The notes: a model not told the origin generated them from the letters alone. 64,000 bases of DNA from an uncultured Gemmatimonadota bacterium (GCA_951812955.1 OX638340.1:2880001-2944000); one strand, 5' to 3'. Numbered from the stretch's first letter, positions 30,178 to 49,680 are shown. Program-made: numbers and translations.

Positions 30178-32056
30178 CCCGGGGTACGCGATAAACCTCT
30201 TCGAGCGGTTCGGCCGGCAGGTCGTGGACCTTCTGTGGCTGCCGAGCCTGGAAGCGTTGCTTCTGGGCGTTCTGGTCTGGGTCCTGCTTTTCGTAAACCG
30301 GGGATGTTCGCCCGGGATCAGGCATTTCCTCTGGTTGCTGGTGCTGGCAAAACCGCTGCTCACCCTTGTGTTGCCCTGGCAGGGACCTTTCGAGATCCCG
30401 TTGGCGTCGATAGCAGGATATGGAGATCCCGCCGCGGGCAATCATATCTTCCTGGCTTCCAGCATTTACGCCGCCGCGGGCTTGATCTGGATGGTCTTCG
30501 CAGGTTTCGGCCTGTACCGCATCGGTTCCTCGGTCATCACGATGACCCGCAGAAAGCGCAGGGCCGTTCCGGTCGCCGTCCCCCGGATACGCGCCTTGTT
30601 CGACGAATGTCTGGCCGAATTGGGACTGAAGCGCGGCGTGGCCTTGCGGGTCTCGGACGAGTTCGAAGGCCCCGCGTTGATCGCCGTGGGGCGGCCCGTA
30701 ATCGTGATCCCCTCCTGGTGCATCCTGGAGCTTTCCAACTCGGAACTCAAGCAGGTTCTGCTCCATGAACTGACGCATTATGCCCGGCGGGACCACCTCA
30801 CGGTAGTGCTGGTAGAATTCACCAGGATCTTCTTCTTCTTCCATCCGGCGGTCTGGTATGCCGCGCGCCGAGTAGGGATTGAGGCCGAACGGGCCTGCGA
30901 CGTGGCCGTCGTCCGTGTTTCCAAACATCCGGAACGCTATGCTTCTATCCTGCTCAAGGTTGCCGGAAGCAAGGTCAGGACGCACTGGCAGGCGGTCCTC
31001 GAACTGGCCAGGTCGGCCTCCGTCGTTGCCATACGTATCCGGGGCGTGCTCGGTTCGGCGGTGAACCGGAAGGGCAGCACCTTCTTCTCGTTGCTGGCCG
31101 CCGGTATATGCACGGTGTTCGCGGTCACGCCCATTTTGCGGCCGACGGTCCATGCCCCCGCCGACATGCCCGTGCCGGCGTGGACTAGCACACCCGACGA
31201 ACAGTCGATCCCCGGCCGGATCGATACGACTCCGGTCAGGCCGAGCCATGACGCCGTGGTAACCGGCGGGTCGAAATCGCTGGTCGAGCACGATCCGGCC
31301 CCGTCCGTCCGTGAAGAGACTCCCAGGATCATGGTCGATGGCCGGCCTTTGCAGCGTAGATCCATGGCCGACCTGATGGTTGATCGTAGCGTCCGGTATG
31401 CAGGCGTGGCCTACGCACCTGTGGGTAGCCAGAGAATAAACCCCGCCGTGCTCGGTCATTCAGCCGCCGCGAGGCTGCCGGACAGATCCCCAGCGCTGGG
31501 GAGCAAGCTCGGACCTGGACGTATCGAGGTGCAGGGTGTGGGTCAGACCGGGAACGCGTTGTTCGATCCGACCACGGTCTCCCTGAGCGCCGGTTATTTC
31601 CTTACATCCACCCACCAGTTCGGCGGCGTGTTTTCCATCCGGCGGCCGAACGATGCCGAATCGCTTGACGACACCTCGCGGTCCCCGGTTTCTTCGTATG
31701 ACGGCACCCCGCTTCGAGCCCGGAAACTGGCCGGGTACGGGACCACGGCGGTGCACGGGACGGTGCTTGAAACCCAGGAGGAAGAGCAGGCCGACCGGAT
31801 AACCCGGATCGGAGCCTTCTATCGGTACAACCCACTCGTTCCGGGTGGTTCCTTCACGCCTTTCTTCGGCTGGGGCACCGGACTGGAGATCAGGCCTCAG
31901 AACCGGTATATGGCCATGATCGACGCCGGGGTTGGACTGCGTTACTTCTGGGAACGGCACGTCGCCGTGATCGTGCAGGCTTCCTACCGAAAGGAGCTCG
32001 ATGTCACCTCGCGACCTTTCCCGGAGATGACGCTGGGCTTCTCAGCGATCTTCTAG
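30170..32056 (+). CDS. BlaR1/MecR1-family M56 peptidase sensor with a non-PBP beta-rich C-terminal domain
   Basis: Four N-terminal TM segments plus the HELTHYARRDH zinc motif. The C-terminal ~300 aa lack transpeptidase/SxxK motifs, are rich in alternating beta-strand patterns and end in ...LGFSAIF. Start overlaps the blaI stop. Confidence 0.7.
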   Translation: MIDPGYAINLFERFGRQVVDLLWLPSLEALLLGVLVWVLLFVNRGCSPGIRHFLWLLVLAKPLLTLVLPWQGPFEIPLASIAGYGDPAAGNHIFLASSIYAAAGLIWMVFAGFGLYRIGSSVITMTRRKRRAVPVAVPRIRALFDECLAELGLKRGVALRVSDEFEGPALIAVGRPVIVIPSWCILELSNSELKQVLLHELTHYARRDHLTVVLVEFTRIFFFFHPAVWYAARRVGIEAERACDVAVVRVSKHPERYASILLKVAGSKVRTHWQAVLELARSASVVAIRIRGVLGSAVNRKGSTFFSLLAAGICTVFAVTPILRPTVHAPADMPVPAWTSTPDEQSIPGRIDTTPVRPSHDAVVTGGSKSLVEHDPAPSVREETPRIMVDGRPLQRRSMADLMVDRSVRYAGVAYAPVGSQRINPAVLGHSAAARLPDRSPALGSKLGPGRIEVQGVGQTGNALFDPTTVSLSAGYFLTSTHQFGGVFSIRRPNDAESLDDTSRSPVSSYDGTPLRARKLAGYGTTAVHGTVLETQEEEQADRITRIGAFYRYNPLVPGGSFTPFFGWGTGLEIRPQNRYMAMIDAGVGLRYFWERHVAVIVQASYRKELDVTSRPFPEMTLGFSAIF

Positions 32057-32096
32057 CTACTCCCTTCGTCCACATGACTATCTGAATCTAAAGCAA

Positions 32097-33548
32097 ATGG
32101 ATCACCATATGAACAGAGCGGCCTCGGCGCTGATTATCGCCGGCGGCGCGGGCGTGCGCCTTCAAACGGTAACCGGCCAGGTTCCCAAACCCTTGATGAA
32201 GCTTTGCGGCGTGCCACTGATCAAGCGGATCATTTTGACAGCGGCCAGGGCCGGCATTTCGCGTTTCGTGATCGTAACGGGGTACCAGGCGGACCTCTTT
32301 CACGAGGTCCTTTCGGACGATCCCGGCCTGGACGGCTGCCGGATCGAGTGGGTGCATAACGAGCGGTGGCACCTGCCCAACGGGGTTTCCGCCCTGGCCG
32401 CCCGTTCCCGCCTGGCGGAACCGTTCGCGCTGCTCATGGCGGATCACCTCTTCGAGCAAAGTACGTTGGAGCGTCTGCTCGAGGAACCGGTCGCCGATGG
32501 GGAATGTCTGCTCGCCGTCGACCGGAAAATCGATAGCGTGTACGACCTGGACGACGCCACCAAGGTCGAGGTGCGCGGGGACGAAGTTGTTCGCATCGAT
32601 AAAGCGCTGCAGGAGTTCAATGCGGTAGACACGGGCATGTTCCTTTGTACGCCGGCACTGTTCGATGCCCTCGATGCCGTGGACGGACCGGAGGGGTGCG
32701 CGTTGAGCGACGGCGTCCGGGCGCTGGCGGAAGACGGGAGGATACACGCCTTCGACGTCGGCGATGGATTCTGGCAGGACGTGGATACGCCCGAAATGCT
32801 GGCGCACGGCGAAAAGAACCTCCTGGAGCGCCTAGTAAAGCCCACGGATGGCTGGATCGCCCGGTACTTGAACCGGCCGGTTTCGACCCGTCTCAGCCGA
32901 TGGCTGGTCCGGACGCCGATCACCCCCAACATGGTGACCCTGGTCACCTTCCTGACCGGCCTGGCCGGAGCGTGGTTCGTGATGGGCGGCACGTACTGGA
33001 CGGTACTTCTTGGCGCCTTTCTTTTCCAGGTTTCGTCCATCCTCGATGGATGCGACGGGGAGGTGGCGGTCCTGACCTTCCGCGAGTCGAAATACGGTTC
33101 ATGGCTCGACACGATCACGGACAACCTGACCTACCTGGCGTTTTTCTCCGCCGTTGTCTGGGCCTATGCGGGCGGTTCCGACGTAACGGCAATCCGGTAC
33201 CTCGGCCTGGTATCCGTCGCCGTGGTGACCGCGTCGATTCTCGCGATGTACTACTACCTGATGCAGACCGGGGGAAGCGGAAGTCTCGTAAGGTTCAACC
33301 GCGCCTTCGAAAGACACGCCGTCGGGCGGCGCCGCAACCTCTCCGCCAGGCTGCTCAATCTGTTTCGGATGATGTGCAAAAGGGATTTCTTTACCTTGTT
33401 GTTGCTGGTTTTTGCCGCAATCGGACTCCTGAACTGGATGTTCTGGACCGTAACGGCCGGCGGCCTGGCCATGGGTCTGGCCATATTCATTTCGACGGGG
33501 CGGCTGTTGGCGCGGGACCGGGCGGTTGAGCAGATGGAGCGCTCATGA
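32097..33548 (+). CDS. bifunctional nucleotidyltransferase / CDP-alcohol phosphotransferase (IPCT/DIPPS-like)
   Basis: N-terminal sugar/polyol-phosphate nucleotidyltransferase motif (IIAGGAGVRL...PKPLMKL). C-terminal CDP-OH P-transferase motif DGCDGEVAVLTFRESKYGSWLDTITDNLT in a polytopic membrane domain. Confidence 0.7.
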   Translation: MDHHMNRAASALIIAGGAGVRLQTVTGQVPKPLMKLCGVPLIKRIILTAARAGISRFVIVTGYQADLFHEVLSDDPGLDGCRIEWVHNERWHLPNGVSALAARSRLAEPFALLMADHLFEQSTLERLLEEPVADGECLLAVDRKIDSVYDLDDATKVEVRGDEVVRIDKALQEFNAVDTGMFLCTPALFDALDAVDGPEGCALSDGVRALAEDGRIHAFDVGDGFWQDVDTPEMLAHGEKNLLERLVKPTDGWIARYLNRPVSTRLSRWLVRTPITPNMVTLVTFLTGLAGAWFVMGGTYWTVLLGAFLFQVSSILDGCDGEVAVLTFRESKYGSWLDTITDNLTYLAFFSAVVWAYAGGSDVTAIRYLGLVSVAVVTASILAMYYYLMQTGGSGSLVRFNRAFERHAVGRRRNLSARLLNLFRMMCKRDFFTLLLLVFAAIGLLNWMFWTVTAGGLAMGLAIFISTGRLLARDRAVEQMERS

Positions 33549-34318
33549 GCGGATTACTGTACCATGTACGGGGACTTTTTACCCTCCGGATCAGGAAGGA
33601 TCTCAACTTCCGCAGGGTCCAGGAAACGGTCCCGGCGCTGCGCTGGCTGAAGCCGCGCAGGGGCGAGCGGATTCTCGATATAGGCTGCGGAGAAGGGACC
33701 TATGATTACCGGGTCGCCATGCGAGGCGCCGAGGTATTCGGTTTAGATTTGAACCGGCACCAATTGCGGCGTGCCGCGTCCTATCACAAGACCCCTTCGA
33801 CGGGATTCTTCTGTGCCGATGCGGGCGCGTTCCCCGTTCGCTCGGGACAGTTCGACACGGTCATGAGCCTGTGCGTCTTCGAGCACCTGCCGGACGACCG
33901 ACAGACGCTGAGGGAGATGTGGCGCGTATTGCGGCCCGGGGGACGCATCCTGTTGACGCTGGACAGTCTGAGCCTCGGGGGGATCGGCGAGGCGTGGCGC
34001 GACGAGCACCGGGAACGTCACAGCGTCCTTCAATTCTATTCGCATCCGTCGGTCGGCTCGTTGCTGGAGGCGTGTGGGTTCAGACTGATAAGACACCGCT
34101 ACCTGCTTCGTTCGAAGCTGGACCTGGCGCTGATCCGGTTGAGCTATGCTACCGAGCGCATGCACGCGATCCCGGCGGCGCTGGTCCGATTGGGGCTGGT
34201 ATCGATCGGCCGGGCAGTGTCTGCGGTTTTTAACCTGTTCACGAAAAACCACGGGGGATGGACGCTGTTGATCGAAGCAGACAGGAAGACCCCCCGTCCG
34301 GCGAATTCCCCACCATGA
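33545..34318 (+). CDS. class I SAM-dependent methyltransferase
   Basis: ILDIGCGEGTY motif I and LRPGGRILLT. ATGA overlap with the upstream gene. Confidence 0.7.
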   Translation: MSGLLYHVRGLFTLRIRKDLNFRRVQETVPALRWLKPRRGERILDIGCGEGTYDYRVAMRGAEVFGLDLNRHQLRRAASYHKTPSTGFFCADAGAFPVRSGQFDTVMSLCVFEHLPDDRQTLREMWRVLRPGGRILLTLDSLSLGGIGEAWRDEHRERHSVLQFYSHPSVGSLLEACGFRLIRHRYLLRSKLDLALIRLSYATERMHAIPAALVRLGLVSIGRAVSAVFNLFTKNHGGWTLLIEADRKTPRPANSPP

Positions 34319-35868
34319 AGCGTACCCTTGAGCAAACGGTTCCGGACCGGTCCGACACCGACGCATCGGCGATCGCCCGGGGCGCGGCCGTCAATTTCAT
34401 CGGAACGGTGGCGCGGCTTACCAAGTCCGTGTCGTTCATCGTCCTTACGCGGCTGTTCGGCGCCGAGATTTTCGGCCTGTACATGCTCGGATGGACCATC
34501 GTGGATCTCGTGGGAAAGGTGGCCCAGTTCTCGTTGGACAAGGGCTTGATCAATTTCATCCCGCGTATGCGCGAGGACGGGAAGAAGGACGCCATCCACC
34601 GAATCATCGCGCAGGCCCTGGGCGTGGGCCTGCTGCTGAGCGTTGGGGTCGGCGCCGCGCTATATGTCGGCGCGCCCGCGCTGGCCGAAGGGCTGCTCGA
34701 AAAGCCACGGCTCACCGGCATGCTGCGGTTGTTGGCGATCGGACTGCCGCTAATCGCCCTGACCCACATCATTTTGGGCGTCACCCGGGCTCACAAAGTC
34801 ATGAAGTACGACGCCATGGTCCGGGGCGCGGTCGAGCCGCTGGTGCTATTCGGGGCGGCCTGCGCCTTGTTCTACTGGGGCTGGCGCACCTACGGCATCG
34901 CCGCGGCCCACCTGGCCGCGCTGACCGGCGGCCTGCTGTTCGCCGTTTACGTGTTCACCAGGTTCTATTCCTGGCGTGCCTGTCTCGTCCACCTGCGCGA
35001 ACTGCGTTTCGTCACTCCGCTGACCCGATTCTCGCTGCCGGTAATGGGCTATGAACTGGTCTACATGGCCATGATACGTCTTGACGTGCTCATGGTCGGC
35101 TACTTCCTGCCGGCGGCGCAGGTGGGCATCTACGTGATCGCGGTCGAAATCGCCTTGCTGACCAAGAAGGTCCGCCAGTGGTTCGACCCGATTTTCAGTC
35201 CCATCGTCGCCGAACTGAATCACCGCAACGACCTGCCGCGGCTGGAGCGCAACCTCAGGCTGGTCACCCGGTGGGTCCTGACCATCGGCGTGGGGTTCCT
35301 CTGCGTCATAGCACTGATCGGCAATGAATTGCTGGGGCTGTTCGGTCCGGCATTCGTCACCGGGTTCATGGCGATGGTCGTCCTGGCCATGAGCCAGGTC
35401 GTATATGCCGCCATGGGTTCTGGCGATACCGTGCTCATCATGTCGGGCCGGCCCTATCTGAATCTCATCAACACGGTCGTGGTCGTAGCAGTGAATTTCG
35501 CCCTGAACCTGTGGCTGATACCATCCCTGGGCATCCTGGGCGCCGCCCTGGGAACGCTGGTATCCTTCGGCCTGCTGACACTAACGCGCCTGGTCGAGGT
35601 ATACCACCTGTTCCGGATCCATCCCCTGGACTGGCGCATTTTGAAGCCCTGCGCCGCAGCGGTCGTCGCCTTCGCATGCGCGTACATGGCGGGGGCCTAC
35701 GCGCCTGATGCCCCGTGGTTGCGCATGGCCGCGCTGCCTCTGATTTTCCTGGCCCCCTATCTCGGTGTGCTGTTCCTGATGGGTTTGGAAGAGGATGACC
35801 GGATCGTGCTCCGGCGCCTGCGGGGGCGGTGGGCACGAAGACGTGGGCACCGAGCTTCAGCGCCATGA
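34315..35868 (+). CDS. MOP-superfamily flippase (Wzx/polysaccharide-biosynthesis-protein type)
   Basis: About 500-aa protein with 12-14 predicted TM helices and Wzx-like N-terminal blocks. Start MKRTLEQ overlaps the upstream stop. Confidence 0.6.
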   Translation: MKRTLEQTVPDRSDTDASAIARGAAVNFIGTVARLTKSVSFIVLTRLFGAEIFGLYMLGWTIVDLVGKVAQFSLDKGLINFIPRMREDGKKDAIHRIIAQALGVGLLLSVGVGAALYVGAPALAEGLLEKPRLTGMLRLLAIGLPLIALTHIILGVTRAHKVMKYDAMVRGAVEPLVLFGAACALFYWGWRTYGIAAAHLAALTGGLLFAVYVFTRFYSWRACLVHLRELRFVTPLTRFSLPVMGYELVYMAMIRLDVLMVGYFLPAAQVGIYVIAVEIALLTKKVRQWFDPIFSPIVAELNHRNDLPRLERNLRLVTRWVLTIGVGFLCVIALIGNELLGLFGPAFVTGFMAMVVLAMSQVVYAAMGSGDTVLIMSGRPYLNLINTVVVVAVNFALNLWLIPSLGILGAALGTLVSFGLLTLTRLVEVYHLFRIHPLDWRILKPCAAAVVAFACAYMAGAYAPDAPWLRMAALPLIFLAPYLGVLFLMGLEEDDRIVLRRLRGRWARRRGHRASAP

Positions 35869-35940
35869 CGTTAGTGGTCCGGCGCCTGCGGGGCCTGTGC
35901 GGCCCGCCGCCTCTACCCGGTAAGAGGCCAAGCGCAAGCC

Positions 35941-37284
35941 GTGGGATGGAGGGGAGCGCGTACTTGGGACATCTGTCGACGGGGAGACTTGGTTATTTTG
36001 AATTACAGCGTGGTATTGTTCGCCGATACGGATGACATCACAGCCGGCGCCGGTCGATCGGTTTACGGCATTTCTCTGTTGGAACGGCACCTTCGGGTCT
36101 TTGCTTCCCTGGGGGCCCGGCGGGTAACCGTGGTCGGACCTGCACCCGGCCGGGGTTCGAAGGTCCGAGTCGACGGATTCGACGAACGCTGGTTCGCTGA
36201 GCTGCGCGCCGTCGACTGCGTGGGGGCCGAAGAAAGCCCTGCCCGCTGGCTGCCCGGGAAGGACGAAGTGGCCCTGGTGCTGGACGCCCACCACCTGTAT
36301 GACCCGCGTGTCCTGCGGGCCATGGTCGAAGGCGGCCCGAACCGTAAAGCCGCGGACTCGGCAGTCAGGGAATCCTGCAGGCTGCTGGTGGCCGACGCAG
36401 ACCTGCTCGCAAGCCTCACAGCGTGCTGGAACGGCTCCGAATCACTATGGTCATCGCTGGACTCGGCGCGGGAATCGACCTGCCCGGTATTCGATCTCCG
36501 CGAAATGGACCCCTATATCGTGGATCTGCGCCGAAGCCTGCCCCCCTGGTGGGTGGTCCTGGGTTCGGACCGGAAAGCGCGCCGGGCGGAGGCGCTTCTG
36601 ATCAATGCCGCACAGAAGGGAACGCTGGATTTTCCGGCGGAATTCATACATCCACCCCTGGAGAACCTGCTTACAAAGTGGATCTCGGCCGGAACCGTGA
36701 CGCCTAACCAGGTAACCACCCTCACCATATTGCTGGCCTTCCTGACCACCGGCCTGCTGGCCGTGGGGCAATCGGGCCCGGGTTACACGGCCGCCGGACT
36801 GATCATCGCCTTCATCGTCGGAGTACTGGACGGGGTCGACGGCAAGTTGGCCCGTGTTACGGTGCGATGCACGCGGTTCGGGGACCGATTTGAACACATC
36901 CTGGACGTGATCTGGGAGCTGACCTGGTACTGGGCCCTGGGGTGGATGCTCGGCGGCAGTGGCGATGTGGCGGGGCCTTTCGTGCTCGCTTCGGTAATCA
37001 CGCTCTTTTATCTGCTTGACAAGACGGCCACGGGGATGTTCAAGTCACGGCAGGGAATCGAACTGTTTGACTACGAGCCCATGGATCGCTTTTTTCGCCG
37101 TATCGGCGCCCGGCGCAACACGAACGTCCTGCTGCTGCTGGGTGGTACGGCGGCAGGTATGCTGGAGGAAGCGTTTACATGCGTGGCCATCTGGACGGTG
37201 ATTACGGCGGCGTTTCACTGGACGCGGGCGATCTGGGTGCTGTCGAAGCCGACATCGGCCGGCGATGTGAAACGGCTTCCTTAA
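35941..37284 (+). CDS. second CDP-alcohol phosphotransferase with divergent N-terminal nucleotidyltransferase-like domain
   Basis: DGVDGKLARVTVRCTRFGDRFEHILD motif in the membrane domain. The N-terminal ~230 aa resemble an NTP-transferase fold (LFADTDDITAGAGRS) but lack the canonical G-x-G-x-R...K residues. Confidence 0.6.
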   Translation: MGWRGARTWDICRRGDLVILNYSVVLFADTDDITAGAGRSVYGISLLERHLRVFASLGARRVTVVGPAPGRGSKVRVDGFDERWFAELRAVDCVGAEESPARWLPGKDEVALVLDAHHLYDPRVLRAMVEGGPNRKAADSAVRESCRLLVADADLLASLTACWNGSESLWSSLDSARESTCPVFDLREMDPYIVDLRRSLPPWWVVLGSDRKARRAEALLINAAQKGTLDFPAEFIHPPLENLLTKWISAGTVTPNQVTTLTILLAFLTTGLLAVGQSGPGYTAAGLIIAFIVGVLDGVDGKLARVTVRCTRFGDRFEHILDVIWELTWYWALGWMLGGSGDVAGPFVLASVITLFYLLDKTATGMFKSRQGIELFDYEPMDRFFRRIGARRNTNVLLLLGGTAAGMLEEAFTCVAIWTVITAAFHWTRAIWVLSKPTSAGDVKRLP

Positions 37285-37426
37285 CGCCAGCCACGATTTC
37301 TCCCGGGCATGGGCCGGCCCATGCCCGTTAATTTGGATCAAAAAGTGGAATTGTGCGTCTAATATGCTTGATAATGAGCGAGTCGGCCATGGCTGTGCGT
37401 CGACGCTTGTGCTAAGCGGAGGCATC

Positions 37427-38803
37427 GTGTTTCGTTTCCTGGTCCACATCCTGGCGGTATCTCTGATCACGGGGCCGGCGGTCGCACAGGGATCGGACCG
37501 TCCCGTACAGGCCGTCCAATCCGTCCGGATGACGCTGGAGCAGTGCGTGGACAGGGCGTTGACGGTCAGTCCTGATATCGAGCAGGCGGCCCTTGCCGTC
37601 GAAGGCCTGGAAGCCAGGTTGAGCGAAGCGAAATTTGCGGGCATCGCACCCCGGTTGCAGTGGACCAACATCTTCGGTCCGGCGCCCGGCATAAAAGGCG
37701 ATACAGAACGGGTCGAGACCATCCGGAGCGACCTGTCCGACCTGGGCGTTTTTTCCCGCACGCAGATCGAATTGGTCCAGCCGCTGTATACCTTCGGGAA
37801 GCTCAGCAATGCGAAGAAGGCGGCCGGATACGGTCTCGAGGCGGGCGAGGCCGCCGTGGAATCCAGGAAGCACGACGTGGCCTTCCAGGTTAAGAAACTG
37901 TTCTACGGACTCGTGTTGGCCCGTGAACTCAGGGAAATCATTCTGGAAAGCGAAGAAAGCGTACGTGAAGCCCGGGAGCGCGTCAACGAGATGATCGAGG
38001 AGGATTCGGAAGATGTCGGCCAGAACGACCTGTTGAAAATCGATGTCTTCGAGTATGAAGTGCAACAGAGCCGGGCGCGGGCCGAGAAGTCGATCGAAAT
38101 AGGGAAGGCGGCGCTGAAATCGGTGCTTGAAATCGATCGCTCCAGCGATTTCGATATCGTCGACACGACCGCGGAACCCAGTACGGCAGACCTCGACGGA
38201 CTGGAATTCTACATCGAACAGGCGAAGAACCGGCGGTACGACATCCGGCAGCTCAGGGCCGGCGTGCTGGCCCGCCGCGCGCTGCTGAAGGTAGCCCGGA
38301 GCGACTACTACCCCCAGATCGCCCTTGCGGGGTCCATCCAGTGGGGTATCGCGCCCCACCGGCCGGAACTCGACAATCCGTTCCTCAGGGACGAGTTCAA
38401 TTTCCTGCGGGGGGGCGCGGTGATTACCTTGCGGCAGAACTTCAATTTCGGCCTGACCCGCGCGAAGTACCAGGCCAGGAAAGTGGAGCTGGAAGCGCTG
38501 GTGACCAGGGAATCACAGGCGATGAACGCGATCGAACTGCAGGTGGAATCGACCTACCGGGACGTGATCGAGGCCCGTACCAACGTCGTCAACAGCGACC
38601 GGGCGCTTCGCTCCGCCAGGGCATGGCTGACATCGGCAAAGCTGGGCTTCGACATCACGGGAGACAGTTCGGAATTGCTGGACGCCTTCACCGCGCACGC
38701 GAAAATGCAACATGCACACCGGCAGTCGCTTTTCCAGTACCGGGTTTCGCTGGCCGAACTCGATCACGTAACCGGTAACGGGATTTCAAATGTGCGGCGC
38801 TGA
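37427..38803 (+). CDS. TolC-like outer-membrane efflux protein (OMF family)
   Basis: Signal peptide after a GTG start (GGAGG-N5-GTG). Paired coiled-coil/beta-barrel repeats typical of OMF proteins. Confidence 0.7.
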   Translation: MFRFLVHILAVSLITGPAVAQGSDRPVQAVQSVRMTLEQCVDRALTVSPDIEQAALAVEGLEARLSEAKFAGIAPRLQWTNIFGPAPGIKGDTERVETIRSDLSDLGVFSRTQIELVQPLYTFGKLSNAKKAAGYGLEAGEAAVESRKHDVAFQVKKLFYGLVLARELREIILESEESVREARERVNEMIEEDSEDVGQNDLLKIDVFEYEVQQSRARAEKSIEIGKAALKSVLEIDRSSDFDIVDTTAEPSTADLDGLEFYIEQAKNRRYDIRQLRAGVLARRALLKVARSDYYPQIALAGSIQWGIAPHRPELDNPFLRDEFNFLRGGAVITLRQNFNFGLTRAKYQARKVELEALVTRESQAMNAIELQVESTYRDVIEARTNVVNSDRALRSARAWLTSAKLGFDITGDSSELLDAFTAHAKMQHAHRQSLFQYRVSLAELDHVTGNGISNVRR

Positions 38804-38824
38804 CACACGGAACGGAGGATGGTC

Positions 38825-39655
38825 ATGAAGAATCGACGTGCGGGGGCGGGCAGGACGCTCAGTCTGGTGGCTGGCACCGTCCTGTTGCTCATTGCCACGT
38901 TCATCGATCCGTCTTCCGTCCTTCGCACGGACTCAGCGGATAAAGGAACGCCGCCCCGATTTTCCGTGCTGGGGATCGACTCTTTTGTTCCGGCAGCCGC
39001 GCGGGCGGATCATCCTCAACGCCGCGATGATCGTCGTGCGTCCGTCCTCATCGATGGCTTCGACAGTTCGGCCCCGGGCAGCTTCCCCCTGACCTGGAAG
39101 GCCTGGCGGGGAGACGATGACCTGGCTCGAAAAACGTATACGATCCGGGAGGAAAACGGAAACCGGTATCTCCACGCCGCCGACGACGGCTCATCCATCA
39201 TCATTCGCAAGCAGCTTAGCGAATGGGATGCGAACGAATACCCGGTGCTGTCATGGCGCTGGAGGGCGAAGGTCCTGCCCGAAGACGGAGATGAACGCAT
39301 CGGTTCCAGGAACGACAGTTCAGTGGCCGTGTACGTGGTCCTGGATCAGAACTTCATCGGCGTGCCCAAAACCCTGAAGTACGTCTGGAGTACCACCCTG
39401 CCGGTCGGCACCCATCACCGCCGCGACGGTATTGGCCGTCCCCACGTGATCGTGCTCGAAAGCGGTACGGAGAAGCTCGGGGAATGGGTCAAGGAGTCGG
39501 TCGACGTGTATGCGGACTATGTCCGGATCTTCGGGAAAAAGCCGCCCCGGAAAGCCGTAGGGATCGGTATTCTTACGGATGGCAACGCGACGGGAACGGA
39601 CTCGAAGGGGGATTACGACGACTTCATGGTTCATCGCCGGAACACCGGGTCCTGA
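38825..39655 (+). CDS. DUF3047-family protein (secreted)
   Basis: Signal peptide plus DUF3047-like blocks (WKAWRGD...YLHA...SSVAVYVV). Confidence 0.5.
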   Translation: MKNRRAGAGRTLSLVAGTVLLLIATFIDPSSVLRTDSADKGTPPRFSVLGIDSFVPAAARADHPQRRDDRRASVLIDGFDSSAPGSFPLTWKAWRGDDDLARKTYTIREENGNRYLHAADDGSSIIIRKQLSEWDANEYPVLSWRWRAKVLPEDGDERIGSRNDSSVAVYVVLDQNFIGVPKTLKYVWSTTLPVGTHHRRDGIGRPHVIVLESGTEKLGEWVKESVDVYADYVRIFGKKPPRKAVGIGILTDGNATGTDSKGDYDDFMVHRRNTGS

Positions 39656-39690
39656 CCCGTCAATTCCGGCCGGAAGGTAGGAGGAAGAAA

Positions 39691-40290
39691 ATGCATGCTA
39701 TTTGCCGCGCACTCCGCCCCTTGGGACCACTTGTCGCCTGGGCGGCGGTGTCGTTGATCGCTTTCGGGAGTAACGCGCAGGAATACTCGCCCATCGAGAC
39801 CCTGAAACAGCGGGACGCCGCGTTACTCGGCCTGGATGGAGCCACCACCGAAGCGGCACGGGACAGTCTCGTGCGCCGGGCCGTCGTCGAGGGGTTCGAT
39901 TTCGTACGACACAGCCGTATCTCGCTCGGCAGGCACTGGCGGGAGAGGACGGACGCGGAACAAGAAGAATTCGTTTCGGTCCTGCGTAAGTGGACGGAAA
40001 ACCGGGCCCTCGACAAGTTGCGCAAGCGGTCGGACAGGACGACTTATGACGGAGAGGAGACCCGGGGCAGCAGGTCGCTGGTGAGAACCACGGTATGGTA
40101 CAAGGGTACCAAAACACTCGTCGACTACAAGATGGAGTTGCAGGAAGGGCACTGGCTCATTTACGACATGGTCATCGACGGGGCGAGCGTCGCGCTGGCC
40201 AACCGGGACGCATTCTACAAGAAGATCAGCAGGACCTCCTACGACGAATTGCTCGATACCCTACTCGCAAAAACCCTTGAAATAGAGTAG
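39691..40290 (+). CDS. MlaC/Ttg2D-family periplasmic phospholipid-binding protein
   Basis: Block-by-block match to MlaC (FDFVRHSRISLGRHWRERTDAEQEEF ... VDYKMELQEGHWLIYDMVIDGASVALANRDAF). GGAGGA RBS precedes the ATG at 39691. Confidence 0.8.
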   Translation: MHAICRALRPLGPLVAWAAVSLIAFGSNAQEYSPIETLKQRDAALLGLDGATTEAARDSLVRRAVVEGFDFVRHSRISLGRHWRERTDAEQEEFVSVLRKWTENRALDKLRKRSDRTTYDGEETRGSRSLVRTTVWYKGTKTLVDYKMELQEGHWLIYDMVIDGASVALANRDAFYKKISRTSYDELLDTLLAKTLEIE

Positions 40291-40370
40291 TATTTCTTGT
40301 ATATTTCCGGGTCTGTGAGATATACTCGTTTCAAGCGGTATATTCATGTCCTAAGTTTTTAGGAGACAGA

Positions 40371-41813
40371 ATGGCGAAGACGGTATACGACCGGTGTATC
40401 TTTTTCCTCGTCGACGGCGCCCGCGAAGACGTCATGCGGGAAATGACCGAGGCGGGCGAACTGCCTGCCCTGCGGCGCTACGTGCTGGACAGGGGAGACT
40501 ACCGAAAGGCGGTGACTTCGTTTCCGTCCACGACCGGTCCGGCCCATGTGCCCTTTCTGACCGGTTGTACGCCCGGTTCGTGCAATCTCCCCGGAATCCG
40601 CTGGTTCGACCGGTCCCAGCCCAATGGTCTCACCCATTTCCGCCAGGCGCGCAGTTACGTGGGTCCGGGAGGCCTGTATATCGACCAGGACCTCAAGGAT
40701 GAAGTCCACACCATCTTCGAGTACTTCGAGCGCCCGGCGGGGGTCTTCAGTTTTGTGAACAGGGGATTGGGCATATTCGAAAACCGGACGCTGCTGACCA
40801 GGGGCTGGTACTGGCTATACGCCCATTACTCCGGCCAGTGGCAGGCCGTGGACGACGCGGCCTGGCGGTACATCGACCGGGCCGTTGACCAGGGCGCCGA
40901 TTTCCTGTCGGTCGTATTCCCCGCGGTGGACGAATACTCGCATTACACCGATCCATTTTCGGACGCCACGTTGAACGCGTACCGGGAATTCGACCGGGGG
41001 CTCGGCAGGTTGGCGGAGCGGCTTCAACGGCAGGACAGACTGGACAGTACGCTTTTCGTGATCTCCAGCGATCATGGCCTGACCTCTACGCACACGCACT
41101 TCGAACTTTGGTCGTTTTTTGACGAATTGGGATTCAACACGCTGTATTATCCCCGGATCCTGCGCAACGGATGCGACGCGGCAACTATGGTCTCGGGCAA
41201 CGGCATGGCGCATATCTACCTCAAGAAAGGCGACTCCTGGGAAGAAAGGCCTTCCTACGAGGAGATCCGCACGCTGGGGGAAACGGACCCGATCGAAGCC
41301 CTGCTGGGGCAGGAGGCGATCGACCTTGTGGCGGCGGTCCAGGATGACTCGGTCATCGTCTGCGGGCGCCGGGGGATCAGTGAAATTAGGGAGACGCCCG
41401 AAGGCATCGCGTACCGGGTTATTGAGGGCCAGGATCCGTTCGGCTATGGAGGCATCCCGGCTGAAGCGTCCGATGAGCAATTGCTCTCCGCCACGTTCGA
41501 CACGGACTATCCCGACGCGCCTTACCAATTGCTGCGTGTCCTCGGTTCTCCGCGGTCGGGCGATTTGATCGTCAGTGCGCGAAAAGGCTACGATCTGAGA
41601 TACCGGTACGAGCATCCTGAGCACAAGTCGACCCATGGTTCACTGCATCGCGACCATATGCACGTTCCCTTGATGATGAATACGGAGATTGCGGCGGACC
41701 ACGTGCGCACCGTGGACCTCTTCCCCGCCATGCTGAACCTGACGGGGCGTTTGGTCGAAGGAACTATTGACGGCAGAGATTCTGTCACCGCCGCTTCGCG
41801 TGCGGTGGCGTAG
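40371..41813 (+). CDS. type I phosphodiesterase / nucleotide pyrophosphatase (NPP, alkaline-phosphatase superfamily)
   Basis: FPSTTGPAHVPFLTG metal/nucleophile-Thr motif and further NPP-like blocks (SSDHG). AGGAGA RBS. Confidence 0.7.
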   Translation: MAKTVYDRCIFFLVDGAREDVMREMTEAGELPALRRYVLDRGDYRKAVTSFPSTTGPAHVPFLTGCTPGSCNLPGIRWFDRSQPNGLTHFRQARSYVGPGGLYIDQDLKDEVHTIFEYFERPAGVFSFVNRGLGIFENRTLLTRGWYWLYAHYSGQWQAVDDAAWRYIDRAVDQGADFLSVVFPAVDEYSHYTDPFSDATLNAYREFDRGLGRLAERLQRQDRLDSTLFVISSDHGLTSTHTHFELWSFFDELGFNTLYYPRILRNGCDAATMVSGNGMAHIYLKKGDSWEERPSYEEIRTLGETDPIEALLGQEAIDLVAAVQDDSVIVCGRRGISEIRETPEGIAYRVIEGQDPFGYGGIPAEASDEQLLSATFDTDYPDAPYQLLRVLGSPRSGDLIVSARKGYDLRYRYEHPEHKSTHGSLHRDHMHVPLMMNTEIAADHVRTVDLFPAMLNLTGRLVEGTIDGRDSVTAASRAVA

Positions 41814-41822
41814 GAGTAATCC

Positions 41823-42914
41823 ATGTCCGAGCAGGTCCAGATTGCCCCGGCGCCGGAACCTGTCCCGCCGTCTCCCGCGCTGCCCGTACTGCAACCGGAC
41901 TCGGGCTATCTCGGGTACGACCGGGCGCTGTTGCGGCCCATGTCCCTCGGCACTAAGCTCCGAGCCTTGTTCAAGTACCTCTGGGTACGATTGAAGGGCG
42001 GACCGATGGCGGTGAACATGGAGGTGACCTATCTGTGCAACGCCACCTGCGATTTCTGTGATTACTGGAAGACGAAACGTTCAGGCAAGCTGGGCGATTA
42101 CGACTACATGGAGGCGCTCAGGAAGCTGAACCCCCTGACGGTCACGCTGACCGGCGGGGAACCCATGATCAACAAGCGACTGCCCGAGGCGGTCAGACGC
42201 ATCAAGGATGGCCTGGGATTCGTTTATATCGGCATGGTCACCCACGGATCTCTGCTGACCGTAGAAAAGGCCATGGCCCTGTGGGATGCCGGCGTGGACC
42301 ACATTTCGATCTCGTTGAACTATATCGGCCGCGAACATGACGAGGAACGGGGTATCGCGGGTTTGTACGAGCATATCTCCACGCTCGTTCCCCAGCTGAC
42401 GGCCCGAGGGGTCAACGTGATCTTCAACACGGTGATCATGCGTGAGAACCTGGACCACGTCGTACCCATCGCGCACCTGGCGCGTTCTATGGGCGCGAAG
42501 GTTTCCTACAGTTGCTACAGCGACTACAAGAATGGGAACGAAACCCACCTTGTGGATCCCGGTCACGAGGAGCAGTTGGAATCCGTGATCGAGGATCTGA
42601 TCTACCAGAAATCCCGATTGGGAAACATCGTCAATTCCGCCTGGTACTTGCGCCGGATCCCCGATTACTTCCAGGATGCGCTTCCAAGGTCCTGCACGGC
42701 AGCGGGCAAGTGGCTGGTGCAACTGACTCCCGACGGCAACGTAAAACCCTGTGCGGAACTGCCCGTAATGTCCGGGTATGCCGATTTCAAGCGGGTTTCA
42801 ACGAAGATCGACTGCAACCGGTGCTGGTACAGTTGCCGGGGTGAGACCGAATCTTCGTTGAAGCTTGTAAGGGTGCTGGAAGGCCTGGGCAGGGCCTGGC
42901 GCAGTAGCGCTTAA
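41823..42914 (+). CDS. radical SAM enzyme with C-terminal SPASM/twitch-like Cys cluster
   Basis: CNATCDFCDYW (CxxxCxxC) plus C-terminal Cys-rich CAELPV...CNRCWYSCRGE. AGGAG RBS. Confidence 0.75.
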   Translation: MSEQVQIAPAPEPVPPSPALPVLQPDSGYLGYDRALLRPMSLGTKLRALFKYLWVRLKGGPMAVNMEVTYLCNATCDFCDYWKTKRSGKLGDYDYMEALRKLNPLTVTLTGGEPMINKRLPEAVRRIKDGLGFVYIGMVTHGSLLTVEKAMALWDAGVDHISISLNYIGREHDEERGIAGLYEHISTLVPQLTARGVNVIFNTVIMRENLDHVVPIAHLARSMGAKVSYSCYSDYKNGNETHLVDPGHEEQLESVIEDLIYQKSRLGNIVNSAWYLRRIPDYFQDALPRSCTAAGKWLVQLTPDGNVKPCAELPVMSGYADFKRVSTKIDCNRCWYSCRGETESSLKLVRVLEGLGRAWRSSA

Positions 42915-49570: not shown

Positions 49571-49680
49571 AGGATCCCGGGTGGCTCCGGTTTCCAATAA
49601 GCTTGACAAGACCCTGGTCCAATCTTAGGATTCAATGTCATTTCATTCTGTCTGAATACGGGAAAAACAAAGGATTCTAC

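What the first reader, a model, noticed from the sequence alone, without database searches (positions are those of the whole stretch)
35941..37284. Paralogous CDP-alcohol phosphotransferase whose N-terminal nucleotidyltransferase-like domain looks catalytically degenerate
The C-terminal membrane domain keeps the full D-G-x2-A-R...G-x3-D-x3-D motif. The N-terminal ~230 aa retain an NTP-transferase-like glycine-rich stretch (AGAGRS) but lack the canonical Lys/PK residues of the activation site. This is compatible with a regulatory or substrate-delivery domain, as proposed for the cytoplasmic domain of archaeal AF2299-type enzymes. Two such fusions in one cluster imply two sequential phosphoalcohol transfers or two acceptor specificities.
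Basis: partly seen in the sequence, partly recalled or inferred. Interest (0 to 1): 0.5.

Follow-up and report, generated by a model that had tools for sequence, protein, structure and literature searches.

The report
Membrane phosphotransferase with dead nucleotidyltransferase domain
A Gemmatimonadota membrane enzyme that attaches phospho-head groups carries a burnt-out copy of the domain that normally makes its activated substrate and apparently relies on a neighbouring paralogue for that step. The feature is real and widespread, but it is a variant of enzymes already known.

Summary
The ORF is real. Its likely true start is TTG 35998, giving 428 aa. It has more than 200 homologues and is under purifying selection.

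**C-terminal half.** This is a six-helix CDP-alcohol phosphotransferase (CDP-AP). The signature is not "full": D3 is Glu318, followed by a near-invariant His319. That gives G-D-x-x-E-H-x-x-D, which resembles the eukaryotic CHPT1/CEPT1 extended motif.

- the GxGxR loop, through an 8-aa deletion;
- the catalytic Lys, now Gly36;
- both Mg-binding Asp positions;
- a ~30-aa lid.

**Family and context.** The degeneracy holds in every relative examined, across many phyla. An intact nucleotidyltransferase gene lies within 10 kb in 43 of 54 well-flanked loci. Two natural fusions join an active nucleotidyltransferase to the pseudo-domain protein. The closest characterised relative is Caulobacter CpgA. 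CpgA is proposed to take CDP-glycerate from the IPCT-like CpgD and transfer it to a ceramide lipid.

**Verdict.** This is a pseudo-nucleotidyltransferase cap on a probably active, Kennedy-type head-group transferase. Its donor is probably supplied in trans by the neighbouring paralogue. It is a new variant of a known kind, of moderate interest.

The parts
35998..37284 (+). Most likely true coding sequence of the target (TTG start, 428 aa plus stop): pseudo-nucleotidyltransferase domain followed by a CDP-alcohol phosphotransferase domain.
   Evidence: Homologues are 424-428 aa and start at the equivalent residue. GGGGAG lies at 35981-35986. The TTGA start/stop overlap is preserved relative to L003. 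dN/dS against L003 is 0.07-0.27.
35941..35997 (+). Upstream extension of the mechanical ORF (GTG 35941), probably not translated.
   Evidence: It is absent from nearly all homologues. Mean pLDDT of its 10-residue blocks is 39 and 60.
35998..36585 (+). Pseudo-nucleotidyltransferase domain (aa 20-215 of the long ORF): IPCT-type fold without catalytic motifs.
36010..36060 (+). Strand beta-1 (VVLFAD), the site of the 8-aa deletion that removes the GxGxR loop, and 'AGAGRS', which occupies the PKPL position (catalytic Lys replaced by Gly36).
   Evidence: Alignments. Column counts.
36283..36309 (+). DAHHLYDPR. The first Mg-binding Asp position is His117. Asp121 (96/96) and Arg123 (93/96) are family-specific conserved residues.
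36505..36543 (+). Family-specific 13-aa insertion MDPYIVDLRRSLP, carrying Arg197 (93/96). It is also conserved in the Caulobacter CpgA-like protein as YNSALRKREPP.
36547..36564 (+). WWVVLG, the position of the second Mg-binding Asp motif (WQDVDT in the paralogue). The Asp is lost.
36586..36696 (+). Linker and juxtamembrane helix, including the conserved QKGTLD (Lys226 and Asp230, each 94/96). This is the most constrained segment (dN/dS 0.07).
36697..37281 (+). Six-helix membrane CDP-alcohol phosphotransferase domain.
36829..36906 (+). Catalytic signature DGVDGKLARVTVRCTRFGDRFEHILD: D1, D2, G1, A, R, G2 and D4 are present. D3 is Glu318. Asp315 and His319 form a CHPT1-like acid/His pair.
   Evidence: CHPT1 motif from PMC10182977.
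37066..37119 (+). Conserved Arg-rich segment FDYEPMDRFFRRIGARRN (D382, R386, R391, R392, N393), lying between model helices 345-371 and 392-404. It is a candidate site for binding an anionic acceptor.
   Evidence: Conservation. Helix positions. The role is inferred by analogy with the PIPS arginines (PMC4634129).
32097..33548 (+). Paralogue: intact IPCT-like nucleotidyltransferase (G-loop 32139-32162, PKPL 32184-32195) fused to an AF2299/DIPPS-like phosphotransferase (motif 33045-33122, with AR changed to AV). It is the likely source of the CDP-activated donor.
   Evidence: Pfam and NCBIfam. PDB matches: 4mnd E 4e-48, T. maritima IPCT 4jd0 E 3e-26. Motif survey.
33545..34318 (+). SAM-dependent methyltransferase in the same co-directional gene string.
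   Evidence: Conserved next to relatives in L003, L007, L013 and L016.
34315..35868 (+). MOP-family (Polysacc_synt) flippase. ORF as listed is 34258-35868; the likely start at 34315 overlaps the methyltransferase stop.
   Evidence: Pfam. A flippase homologue is found in 23 of 89 relatives' loci. Tail frameshift relative to L003.
37364..42914 (+). Downstream co-directional genes: TolC-like OEP (37364-38803), DUF3047 (38819-39655), MlaC (within 39484-40290), AlkP-superfamily phosphodiesterase (40371-41813), radical SAM (41823-42914).
   Evidence: Pfam. Same order in L003 and L013.
29758..32056 (+). BlaI-like repressor (29758-30177) and BlaR1-like M56 sensor-protease (30170-32056), heading the gene string.
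   Evidence: Pfam. Conserved in the Zixibacteria locus L001 and in L003.

Best explanation
The gene encodes an inner-membrane CDP-alcohol phosphotransferase of a widespread, largely uncharacterised bacterial family. The family signature is D[G/T/S]VDGKLAR...G(D/E)xx(E/D)HxxD, and the family includes the synteny-inferred Caulobacter CpgA orthologues.

Shown:
- Its first ~200 residues are a pseudo-enzyme. They form an IPCT-type nucleotidyltransferase fold.
- That fold has lost the GxGxR loop, the catalytic Lys, both Mg-binding Asp positions and the ~30-aa substrate lid. It has gained a conserved 13-aa insertion.
- The domain is still under purifying selection.
- The membrane domain keeps seven of the eight signature residues, has a carboxylate (Glu) at D3, and carries a CHPT1-like acid/His pair.

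Inferred:
- The dead domain cannot make a CDP-alcohol. It is kept as a cytoplasmic cap or docking module on the transferase, as in AF2299.
- The CDP-activated head group is made in trans by the intact IPCT-like domain of the paralogue at 32097-33548.
- The target transfers the phospho-head group to a hydroxyl of a membrane lipid or lipid-linked acceptor, in a Kennedy-type reaction with His319 helping to activate the acceptor.
- The paralogue's own AF2299-like transferase domain performs a second, different transfer.
- The product is modified (methyltransferase, radical SAM), flipped (MOP flippase) and moved to the outer membrane (MlaC, TolC-like protein, DUF3047).
- The head group is unknown. 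It is inositol-derived in several relatives and phosphoglycerate in Caulobacter.
For: Fold and homology of the N-domain:
- The AlphaFold model has pLDDT 92.9.
- HHalign of the N-domain profile against the active-nucleotidyltransferase profile gives 99.4%, E 2e-21. The alignment shows the loop deletion, Lys to Gly36, Asp to His117, the lid deletion and the loss of the second Asp. The PDB profile alignment agrees.

Family-wide pattern:
- 84 of 85 relatives' ORFs match the degenerate-domain profile without a GxGxR or PK motif. The exception, L016, is a read-through fusion whose motifs belong to its upstream active domain.
- dN/dS is 0.27 for the pseudo-domain and 0.11 for the paralogue's active domain.
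- Signature conservation over 96 sequences: D297, D300, G301, A304, R305 and G314 in 96/96; position 318 is E in 60 and D in 36; H319 in 90/96.
- The CHPT1 extended motif G2ExxD3HxxD4 has an essential Glu/His pair (PMC10182977).

Donor supplied in trans:
- A canonical nucleotidyltransferase gene lies within 10 kb in 43 of 54 well-flanked loci.
- L016 has a 934-aa ORF reading NT-CAPT-pseudoNT-CAPT. P0249 reads NT-pseudoNT-CAPT.
- The Caulobacter relative sits in a cpgD...cpgA-cpgB-cpgC-spt layout and is 35% identical to the target, E 8e-36.
- CpgA is required to add a second phosphoglycerate to a ceramide lipid (PMC9393093). CDP-glycerate from the IPCT-like CpgD is proposed, not yet shown, to be its donor (PMC12275187).

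Context:
- The cluster is conserved in Gemmatimonadota, Zixibacteria and Latescibacterota.
- Relatives' clusters include flippase, MprF-like, MMPL and serine palmitoyltransferase genes.
Against: - No biochemical data exist for this protein or for any close relative. The CpgA evidence is genetic only, and the link to the Caulobacter homologue rests on synteny.
- Six-helix CDP-APs have been associated with soluble acceptors, while lipid-acceptor enzymes usually have extra helices (PMC4634129).
- The effect of D3 changing to Glu is untested.
- The head group is unknown. No inositol-phosphate synthase lies in the 64-kb window.
- Similarity to IPCT does not fix substrate specificity, since CpgD uses phosphoglycerate.
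- The role of the pseudo-domain as a cap or docking module comes from architecture and conservation, not from a test.
- Conserved Arg49, Asp121, Arg123 and Arg197 could equally well mark a ligand site.
Confidence: 0.58

Rival explanations
1. The degenerate domain is an allosteric sensor. It would still bind a nucleotide, a CDP-alcohol or a pathway product and gate the transferase. Known pseudo-nucleotidyltransferase subunits behave this way, such as GMPPA acting on GMPPB and the large subunits of ADP-glucose pyrophosphorylase.
For: - The domain is under purifying selection, with dN/dS 0.27.
- It keeps near-invariant charged residues that are not catalytic residues of active nucleotidyltransferases: Arg49, Asp121, Arg123 and Arg197.
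- The domain is retained even when an active nucleotidyltransferase is fused in front of it, as in P0249.
Against: - The deletions remove the phosphate-binding loop and the ~30-aa lid. In active nucleotidyltransferases these elements contribute much of the nucleotide and substrate pocket (general knowledge of the fold, not tested here).
- No ligand-binding evidence exists.
- In Caulobacter-type relatives only the C-terminal part of the domain remains detectable. That fits a structural role better than a conserved pocket.
Confidence: 0.2
2. The membrane domain is a PIP-synthase or PgsA-like enzyme. It would use lipid-bound CDP-diacylglycerol, or another CDP-lipid, as donor and a soluble phosphorylated alcohol such as inositol-1-phosphate as acceptor. 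The neighbouring nucleotidyltransferase would serve a different step.
For: - The six-helix architecture is typical of enzymes with soluble acceptors (PMC4634129).
- An Arg-rich cytoplasmic motif could bind a phosphorylated acceptor.
- NCBIfam gives weak hits to archaetidylinositol-phosphate synthase (40.7 bits) and PIP synthases.
- Inositol-phosphate synthase is adjacent in 17 of 89 relatives' loci.
Against: - The NCBIfam scores are far below the cut-offs (40.7 against 180).
- The closest solved structures, DIPPS and AF2299, use soluble CDP-alcohol donors.
- There is a strong linkage to a soluble-substrate nucleotidyltransferase and there are direct fusions to one.
- For the closest characterised relative, CpgA, the proposed donor is soluble CDP-glycerate.
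- The His next to D3 is typical of CHPT1/CEPT1, which take a soluble CDP-donor and a lipid acceptor.
Confidence: 0.12
3. The target is a catalytically dead transferase as well, because of D3 changing to Glu. It would serve only as a scaffold or heterodimer partner for the active paralogue.
For: - D3 is one of eight residues described as absolutely conserved (PMC4634129), and here it is Glu.
- CDP-APs work as dimers, and residues of both monomers contribute to ligand binding (PMC8633023).
- A natural tandem fusion of the two paralogues exists.
Against: - All other signature residues are invariant in 96 of 96 sequences, including the last Asp of the motif (D4).
- Glu and Asp alternate at D3 within the family, 60 against 36, so a carboxylate is always present.
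- His319 is conserved in 90 of 96 sequences.
- dN/dS of the membrane domain is 0.19.
- In several clusters the family member is the only such transferase detected, for example L060.
- The Caulobacter relative has Asp-His at these positions and its inferred orthologue has a genetic phenotype.
Confidence: 0.05
4. The N-domain is still an active nucleotidyltransferase that uses non-canonical residues.
For: - The fold is retained.
- Some relatives keep an Asp at the first Mg position, 36 of 96.
Against: - The GxGxR loop is deleted. Lys is replaced by Gly. The lid carrying the DTG motif is deleted. The second Asp is lost.
- No Pfam or NCBIfam nucleotidyltransferase hit is found.
- A canonical nucleotidyltransferase is almost always encoded nearby or fused.
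Confidence: 0.03

Closest known systems
CpgA (CCNA_01217) of Caulobacter crescentus, acting with the cytidylyltransferase CpgD (CCNA_01210) in ceramide diphosphoglycerate synthesis
   Same: - It belongs to the same sequence family. The Caulobacter sp. homologue lies in a cpgD...cpgA-cpgB-cpgC-spt layout. It is 35% identical to the target over 239 aa, E 8e-36.
- That alignment covers the Y..LR(R/K)..PP insertion, the D-x-VDGKLAR...(E/D)H..D signature and the FRxIxARRN motif.
- It depends on a separately encoded IPCT-like nucleotidyltransferase for its proposed donor, CDP-glycerate (PMC12275187), and acts on a lipid acceptor (PMC9393093).
   Different: - In the Caulobacter protein only the C-terminal part of the pseudo-domain is detectable, and D3 is Asp.
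- Its context is sphingolipid synthesis (ceramide kinase, serine palmitoyltransferase), which is absent from this window.
- Here the partner nucleotidyltransferase is fused to a second transferase, and the cluster adds a MOP flippase, a methyltransferase and a radical SAM enzyme.
- CpgA's biochemistry is still unproven.
AF2299 of Archaeoglobus fulgidus (PDB 4o6m, 4o6n, 4q7c)
   Same: [quoted passage not shown]
- Both domains superpose, with Foldseek E 2e-12 and TM-score normalised to the target of 0.74-0.81.
- The motif GLTLRER in AF2299 matches the family consensus GlsLlER.
   Different: - It is archaeal.
- Its N-domain is shorter, leaving about 13 native residues before the GLTLRER helix.
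- Its transferase signature is DGCDGEIAR...GAWLDGVLD, without the acid/His pair.
- In sequence AF2299 is much closer to the paralogue (E 1e-26) than to the target (E 3e-5). The loss of nucleotidyltransferase function therefore looks independent in the two lineages.
Bifunctional IPCT-DIPPS (A. fulgidus AF0263, PDB 4mnd)
   Same: - The family profile aligns with it along the full length, E 1e-20.
- Domain order and linker are the same.
   Different: - IPCT-DIPPS has a working nucleotidyltransferase domain with the GxGxRL, PK and GDH motifs. The target lacks all of them.
- The NCBIfam equivalog score is 50.8 against a cut-off of 580.
- The neighbouring paralogue, not the target, is the IPCT-DIPPS-like protein, at 237 bits.
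Eukaryotic choline/ethanolamine phosphotransferases CHPT1 and CEPT1 (Kennedy pathway)
   Same: - The target family carries an acid immediately after G2 and a His immediately after D3: G-D-R-F-E-H-I-L-D against G-E-L-F-D-H-G-C-D. This pair was proposed as a catalytic dyad and reported to be absent from most bacterial CDP-APs (PMC10182977).
- The family profile hits CHPT1 and CEPT1 at E about 1e-9.
- The inferred logic is the same: a soluble CDP-head-group donor and a lipid acceptor.
   Different: - The eukaryotic enzymes have ten helices and no nucleotidyltransferase-like domain.
- Their D3 is Asp.
- The resemblance is limited to the catalytic helices.
Non-catalytic nucleotidyltransferase-fold proteins (GMPPA, eIF2B gamma/epsilon)
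   Different: They are soluble proteins in unrelated pathways, and there is no specific sequence relationship.

Membership tests
CDP-alcohol phosphotransferase superfamily (Pfam PF01066) | Profile score above the curated cut-off | tested here: met
   38.4 bits against a cut-off of 22, at aa 253-337.
CDP-alcohol phosphotransferase superfamily (Pfam PF01066) | Signature residues D1, D2, G1, A, R, G2 and D4 | tested here: met
   D297, D300, G301, A304, R305, G314 and D322 are all present. The first six are invariant in 96 of 96 relatives and D322 occurs in 90 of 96.
CDP-alcohol phosphotransferase superfamily (Pfam PF01066) | D3 is aspartate | tested here: inconclusive
   Here it is Glu318. The family has E in 60 and D in 36 sequences at this column, so a carboxylate is always kept. 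The functional effect of Asp to Glu is untested.
CDP-alcohol phosphotransferase superfamily (Pfam PF01066) | Six-helix membrane fold superposable on solved members | tested here: met
   [not shown]
CDP-alcohol phosphotransferase superfamily (Pfam PF01066) | Metal-dependent phospho-alcohol transfer from a CDP-linked donor | not testable with these tools
   This requires an enzyme assay.
Sugar/alcohol-phosphate nucleotidyltransferases (PF00483, PF12804) | Nucleotidyltransferase (Rossmann-like alpha/beta) fold | tested here: met
   [not shown]
Sugar/alcohol-phosphate nucleotidyltransferases (PF00483, PF12804) | GxGxR(L) phosphate-binding loop after strand 1 | tested here: not met
   An 8-residue deletion follows VVLFAD. 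No G.G.R motif is found in 84 of 85 relatives; in the exception, L016, the motif belongs to the fused upstream domain.
Sugar/alcohol-phosphate nucleotidyltransferases (PF00483, PF12804) | Catalytic Lys (the PK motif) and two Mg-binding Asp residues | tested here: not met
   Lys is replaced by Gly36. The first Asp position is His117. The second Asp motif WQDVDT reads WWVVLG.
Sugar/alcohol-phosphate nucleotidyltransferases (PF00483, PF12804) | Profile match | tested here: not met
   No Pfam family is found at E of 0.01 or better for the N-domain alone or in the full protein.
Bifunctional IPCT/DIPPS (NCBIfam NF041135) | Equivalog score and an active cytidylyltransferase half | tested here: not met
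   50.8 bits against a cut-off of 580, matching only aa 204-423. The nucleotidyltransferase motifs are absent.
AF2299-type CDP-AP with a non-catalytic cytidylyltransferase-like domain | Two-domain architecture superposable on AF2299 | tested here: met
   Foldseek gives E 2e-12 to 7e-12, 420-433 aligned columns and TM-score normalised to the target of 0.74-0.81.
AF2299-type CDP-AP with a non-catalytic cytidylyltransferase-like domain | Same sequence subfamily as AF2299 | tested here: not met
   phmmer gives E 3e-5 and matches the membrane part only. AF2299 matches the paralogue far better, at E 1e-26. The signatures differ: DGCDGEIAR against DGVDGKLAR.
CpgA-like family (Caulobacter CCNA_01217) | Significant similarity to the Caulobacter homologue identified by its cpg synteny, including the family motifs | tested here: met
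   35% identity over 239 aa, E 8e-36. The L087 gene order is NT...CAPT-DAGK kinase-unknown-Spt. The shared signature is shown.
CpgA-like family (Caulobacter CCNA_01217) | Sphingolipid gene context (ceramide kinase, CpgC, serine palmitoyltransferase) | tested here: not met
   None is found in the 64-kb window. The aminotransferase at 13259-14602 is HisC-like.
CpgA-like family (Caulobacter CCNA_01217) | Identity of the L087 protein with CCNA_01217 itself, and CDP-glycerate:lipid transferase activity | not testable with these tools
CpgA's activity is genetic and hypothetical in the literature.
Eukaryotic CHPT1/CEPT1 type | Extended signature G2-E-x-x-D3-H-x-x-D4 | tested here: inconclusive
   The target reads G-D-R-F-E-H-I-L-D. 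The acid and His are present, but with Asp for Glu and Glu for Asp.
Eukaryotic CHPT1/CEPT1 type | Ten-helix architecture | tested here: not met
   The model shows six long membrane helices between residues 255 and 435, plus one short helix at 380-388, with none after residue 435.

The most novel reading that the evidence does not exclude
The two paralogues form an obligate hetero-oligomer with divided labour. One protomer would contribute the only working cytidylyltransferase plus an AF2299-like transferase. The other would contribute a pseudo-cytidylyltransferase that docks or channels the CDP-intermediate to a transferase with a eukaryote-type acid/His catalytic pair. Together they would build an as yet undescribed tandem or branched phospho-polyol (possibly inositol-derived) outer-membrane lipid in Gemmatimonadota, Zixibacteria and Latescibacterota. 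That would be a bacterial Kennedy-type pathway with its own flippase and export machinery.
Probability: 0.17. Interest if true: 0.65.

Novelty: new variant of a known kind. Interest (0 to 1): 0.4.

Why it matters
**What is new.** The finding defines a large bacterial family of head-group transferases that carry a fossil nucleotidyltransferase domain. More than 588 genomic relatives turned up in one scan, across at least ten phyla. The fossil domain has not been described for this family; the Caulobacter papers read here mention only a "PgsA domain" in CpgA.

**What it predicts.** The donor should be made in trans by a linked IPCT-like enzyme. The family also has a conserved acid/His pair that was previously considered eukaryotic. 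These points give concrete hypotheses for the still unknown biochemistry of CpgA.

**What it flags.** It highlights a conserved, uncharacterised envelope-lipid gene cluster in poorly studied phyla. The cluster holds two transferases, a methyltransferase, a flippase, a radical SAM enzyme, MlaC, a TolC-like protein and DUF3047.

**Evolutionary point.** It also offers a tidy series for how bifunctional enzymes decay into pseudo-enzyme fusions:
1. an intact nucleotidyltransferase fused to the transferase (P0087);
2. a full-length dead domain (this gene);
3. a barely detectable remnant (Caulobacter type, and AF2299 in parallel).

Tried and rejected
1. **AGAGRS as a remnant glycine loop.** Rejected. 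It aligns to PKPL and is not conserved.
2. **Reciprocal degeneration.** The idea was that the paralogue's transferase is dead because AR is AV. This stays inconclusive.
   - The position is K, R, V, T, S or M across 118 relatives.
   - R133A is fully active in Candida Cho1, although R to M or A cripples Cpt1 and AfDIPPS (PMC8727905).
3. **An inositol-phosphate synthase in the window.** None was found by tblastn. The inositol assignment therefore rests only on relatives' loci.
4. **Sphingolipid genes in the window.** None. The class I/II aminotransferase at 13259-14602 is HisC-like.
6. **phmmer with the N-domain alone against 1.84 billion representatives.** Only 30 hits, consisting of same-architecture proteins, fragments of them, one NT-pseudoNT-CAPT fusion (P0249) and a few repetitive long proteins matching short stretches. 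No clearly different domain context emerged.
7. **Resources that were unavailable.**
   - The AF2299 structure paper (Sciara 2014) and the IPCT-DIPPS paper (Nogly 2014) could not be read.
   - The afdb50 fold library was not available.
   - Model coordinates could not be inspected, so the location of the conserved N-domain residues relative to the membrane domain was not determined.
Full report
**Observation.** The ORF at 35941-37284 (+) exists and encodes 447 aa from a GTG. The window comes from a Gemmatimonadota-like genome, since the best homologues (80-95% identity) are from Gemmatimonadetes MAGs.

The real start is probably TTG 35998, giving 428 aa. The reasons are:
- Homologues are 424-428 aa and begin at the equivalent MxYSVVLFAD.
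- GGGGAG lies at 35981-35986.
- Residues 1-8 of the long ORF have pLDDT below 50, and the 10-residue blocks 1-10 and 11-20 average 39 and 60.
- In the 85%-identical relative L003 the upstream flippase stop overlaps this start. The TTGA overlap is still present in the window.

Pfam detects only CDP-OH_P_transf, at aa 253-337 (38.4 bits against a cut-off of 22). Nothing is detected in the first ~230 residues, even when they are scanned alone. A second fusion protein at 32097-33548 has an intact NTP_transferase domain plus CDP-OH_P_transf.

**The membrane half.** The signature reads D297-xx-D300-G301-xx-A304-R305-x8-G314-D-R-F-E318-H319-I-L-D322.

In a 96-sequence family alignment:
- D297, D300, G301, A304, R305 and G314 are invariant.
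- Position 318 is Glu in 60 sequences and Asp in 36.
- His319 is present in 90 of 96.
- D322 is present in 90 of 96.

A carboxylate at D3 is therefore always kept, and the domain looks functional. Its dN/dS against L003 is 0.19.

The acid after G2 and the His after D3 reproduce the extended signature G2ExxD3HxxD4 proposed for eukaryotic CHPT1/CEPT1. [quoted passage not shown] The paralogue (GSWLDTITD), AF2299 and DIPPS all lack this pair.

**The N-terminal half.** An AlphaFold model built on the 96-sequence alignment is confident, with pLDDT 92.9 and pTM 0.90.
- Foldseek against the PDB puts AF2299 first (E 2e-12, 420-433 aligned columns, TM-score normalised to the target 0.74-0.81). IPCT-DIPPS 4mnd follows, then RmlA and MurU.
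- A profile-profile comparison of the family's N-domain with the paralogue family's active domain gives probability 99.4%, E 2e-21.
- The family profile aligns with 4mnd along its whole length, E 1e-20.

The fold and the homology are therefore established.

The alignments also show what has been lost:
- An 8-residue deletion after strand 1 (VVLFAD) removes the GxGxRL loop.
- The first Mg-binding Asp (ADH) is His117.
- A ~30-residue lid carrying the DTG motif is deleted.
- The second Asp motif (WQDVDT) reads WWVVLG.

There is also a gain: a 13-residue insertion, MDPYIVDLRRSLP, with Arg197 conserved in 93 of 96 sequences.

Other conserved N-domain residues are Arg49, Gly58, Asp121 (96/96) and Arg123. 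The dN/dS of this domain is 0.27, against 0.11 for the paralogue's active domain. Selection is relaxed, but the domain is clearly constrained.

**How general this is.** The 80 loci kept come from Gemmatimonadota, Latescibacterota, Verrucomicrobiota, Binatia, Myxococcota, Desulfobacterota, Chloroflexi, Sphingomonadales, Caulobacter, Dongia and Entotheonella.
- In 84 of 85 extended ORFs the degenerate-domain profile matches and no GxGxR or PK motif is present. The exception, L016, is a read-through fusion whose motifs belong to the upstream active domain.
- Caulobacter- and Dongia-type members keep only the C-terminal part of the domain.
- An archaeal member (P0087) with the same transferase signature still has an intact nucleotidyltransferase.

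The family thus shows a series running from live domain to dead domain to remnant. AF2299 is described as having a cytidylyltransferase-like N-domain (PMC4634129). It is far closer in sequence to the paralogue (E 1e-26) than to the target (E 3e-5), so its degeneration is probably a parallel event.

**Where the donor comes from.**
- Among loci with at least 8 kb of flank on both sides, 43 of 54 contain a canonical nucleotidyltransferase gene within 10 kb (61 of 89 overall). It is fused to a second transferase in Gemmatimonadota, Zixibacteria, Latescibacterota and a Cytophagia MAG, and stands alone elsewhere.
- Two natural fusions tie the partners together. A 934-aa ORF in a Latescibacterota genome reads NT-CAPT-pseudoNT-CAPT (L016). 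A 666-aa protein reads active NT-pseudoNT-CAPT (P0249).

The second fusion shows that the dead domain is retained even when a live one is attached. It therefore has a role of its own.

**Characterised relatives.** In Caulobacter sp. (L087) the family member is followed by a DAGK-type kinase, a domain-less ORF and a serine-palmitoyltransferase-like gene. A nucleotidyltransferase lies 7 kb upstream. This matches the published cpgD...cpgA-cpgB-cpgC-spt arrangement.
- CpgA (CCNA_01217, "PgsA domain") is required to add the second phosphoglycerate to ceramide phosphoglycerate (PMC9393093).
- CpgD is an IPCT-like enzyme that makes CDP-glycerate, the proposed donor for CpgA (PMC12275187).
- The target is 35% identical to the Caulobacter protein over 239 residues, E 8e-36. 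The aligned region includes the insertion motif and the Arg-rich FRxIxARRN segment.

This is the best functional analogue: a soluble CDP-activated head group made in trans and transferred to a lipid.

Other relatives' contexts are:
- Some sit beside inositol-phosphate synthase plus a stand-alone nucleotidyltransferase (Sphingomonadales L004 and L008).
- One lies in a contiguous Desulfobacterales operon reading MIPS-HAD-NT-unknown ORF-aminotransferase-GFO/IDH oxidoreductase-CAPT-MprF-like-OEP-MMPL-radical SAM (L060).
- One lies beside serine palmitoyltransferase, an SDR and MMPL (L005).

The putative alternative CDP-inositol route to inositol lipids in Bacteroidetes follows the same logic (PMC9246714). 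The head group clearly varies within the family. IPCT-likeness does not fix it, because CpgD uses phosphoglycerate.

**The local cluster.** The genes from 29758 to 42914 are co-directional with short gaps or overlaps:
- BlaI-like repressor and BlaR1-like sensor;
- NT-CAPT paralogue;
- methyltransferase;
- MOP flippase;
- the target;
- TolC-like protein;
- DUF3047;
- MlaC;
- alkaline-phosphatase-superfamily phosphodiesterase;
- radical SAM enzyme.

The same order recurs in other Gemmatimonadota. A shorter version occurs in Zixibacteria. No inositol-phosphate synthase or sphingolipid gene lies in the 64-kb window.

**Interpretation.** The best-supported reading is a pseudo-nucleotidyltransferase cap on a probably active, Kennedy-type head-group transferase.
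- The donor is made by the neighbour's live nucleotidyltransferase domain.
- The neighbour's AF2299-like transferase performs a second, different transfer.
- The product is a modified envelope lipid that is flipped and exported.

Shown: the fold, the homology, the loss of catalytic elements, the conservation, the synteny and the fusions. Inferred: donor and acceptor identity, the His-assisted mechanism, the structural role of the dead domain and the export route.

Rivals are:
- a ligand-sensing role for the dead domain;
- a PIP-synthase-like reaction with a CDP-lipid donor;
- a dead scaffold;
- residual nucleotidyltransferase activity.

The paralogue's AR-to-AV change in this clade is noted. 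Its meaning is unclear, because the Arg is dispensable in Cho1 but important in Cpt1 and AfDIPPS.

**Verdict.** The finding is real and its core interpretation is correct, with two factual corrections. It is a new variant of a known kind, with precedents in AF2299, IPCT-DIPPS and CpgA. Interest is moderate. It defines a widespread pseudo-enzyme fusion family, gives testable predictions for CpgA-type enzymes, and points to an uncharacterised envelope-lipid pathway.

Noticed in passing
L016:8399-11203 (Latescibacterota MAG, 5.77-Mb contig): A single 934-aa ORF reads active NT - CAPT - pseudo-NT - CAPT, which is a natural tandem fusion of the two paralogue types. A methyltransferase and a radical SAM gene follow it. 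The fusion could be real, or it could reflect a lost stop codon in a long-read assembly.
   Followed up: partly
P0249 (666 aa, from the representative-protein search): A three-domain protein: an active nucleotidyltransferase (GDGSRL...GKPK), then the pseudo-nucleotidyltransferase, then the CAPT domain (DGVDGKLAR...GHIEHSFD). The dead domain is kept even though a live one is fused in front of it.
   Followed up: partly
window 33045-33122 (paralogue CAPT motif): The normally conserved Arg of the 'AR' dipeptide is Val (DGCDGEVAV) in all 28 Gemmatimonadota-clade orthologues. It is Lys in the Zixibacteria and Latescibacterota orthologues, and K, R, T, S or M elsewhere. Whether this transferase domain is fully active is unclear.
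   Followed up: partly
window 35800-35997: Compared with L003, the low-complexity C-terminal tail of the MOP flippase is out of frame in the window. The ORF stops at 35868 rather than at the TGA overlapping the target's TTG start. This is either a real indel in a dispensable tail or a sequencing error.
   Followed up: partly
window 42911-48667 (-): A 1918-aa ORF consists of two complete UvrA units in tandem (a double UvrA). It is conserved as 1923 aa in relative L003.
   Followed up: no
window 27088-28512 (+): A protein with a hydrophobic N-terminus and long collagen-like G-x-y triple-helix repeats (Pfam Collagen), followed by a non-repetitive C-terminal part.
   Followed up: no
L060:3890-17718 (Desulfobacterales MAG): A contiguous same-strand operon: inositol-phosphate synthase, HAD phosphatase, nucleotidyltransferase, an unknown 282-aa-type protein, a class III aminotransferase, a GFO/IDH/MocA oxidoreductase, the family CAPT, an MprF-like TM protein, OEP, MMPL and radical SAM. 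The set suggests an amino-cyclitol phosphate lipid head group.
   Followed up: no
L005:1465-15133 (MAG GCA_947258975.1): Two pseudo-NT CAPT paralogues, a MOP flippase, two radical SAM genes and an Asp/Arg hydroxylase lie directly after a serine-palmitoyltransferase-like gene (553 bits to NF047600), an SDR, an unknown 355-aa ORF and MMPL. This looks like a sphingolipid head-group cluster.
   Followed up: partly
window 5528-7238 (+) and 59855-60664 (-): Two PhyH-family dioxygenases and a WelO5-like Fe/2-oxoglutarate halogenase homologue. The pair at 5528-6370 and 6396-7238 is adjacent.
   Followed up: no
window 60797-63991 (-): A 1064-aa protein combining Cache sensor domains, a Big_2 domain and an autotransporter beta-domain. 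This is an unusual combination.
   Followed up: no
window 49252-53140 (+): Two GFO/IDH/MocA oxidoreductases with sub-threshold similarity to inositol 2-dehydrogenase IolG (131 and 102 bits against a cut-off of 355). They lie about 7-10 kb beyond the cluster, on the far side of the UvrA gene. No link to the cluster was shown.
   Followed up: no
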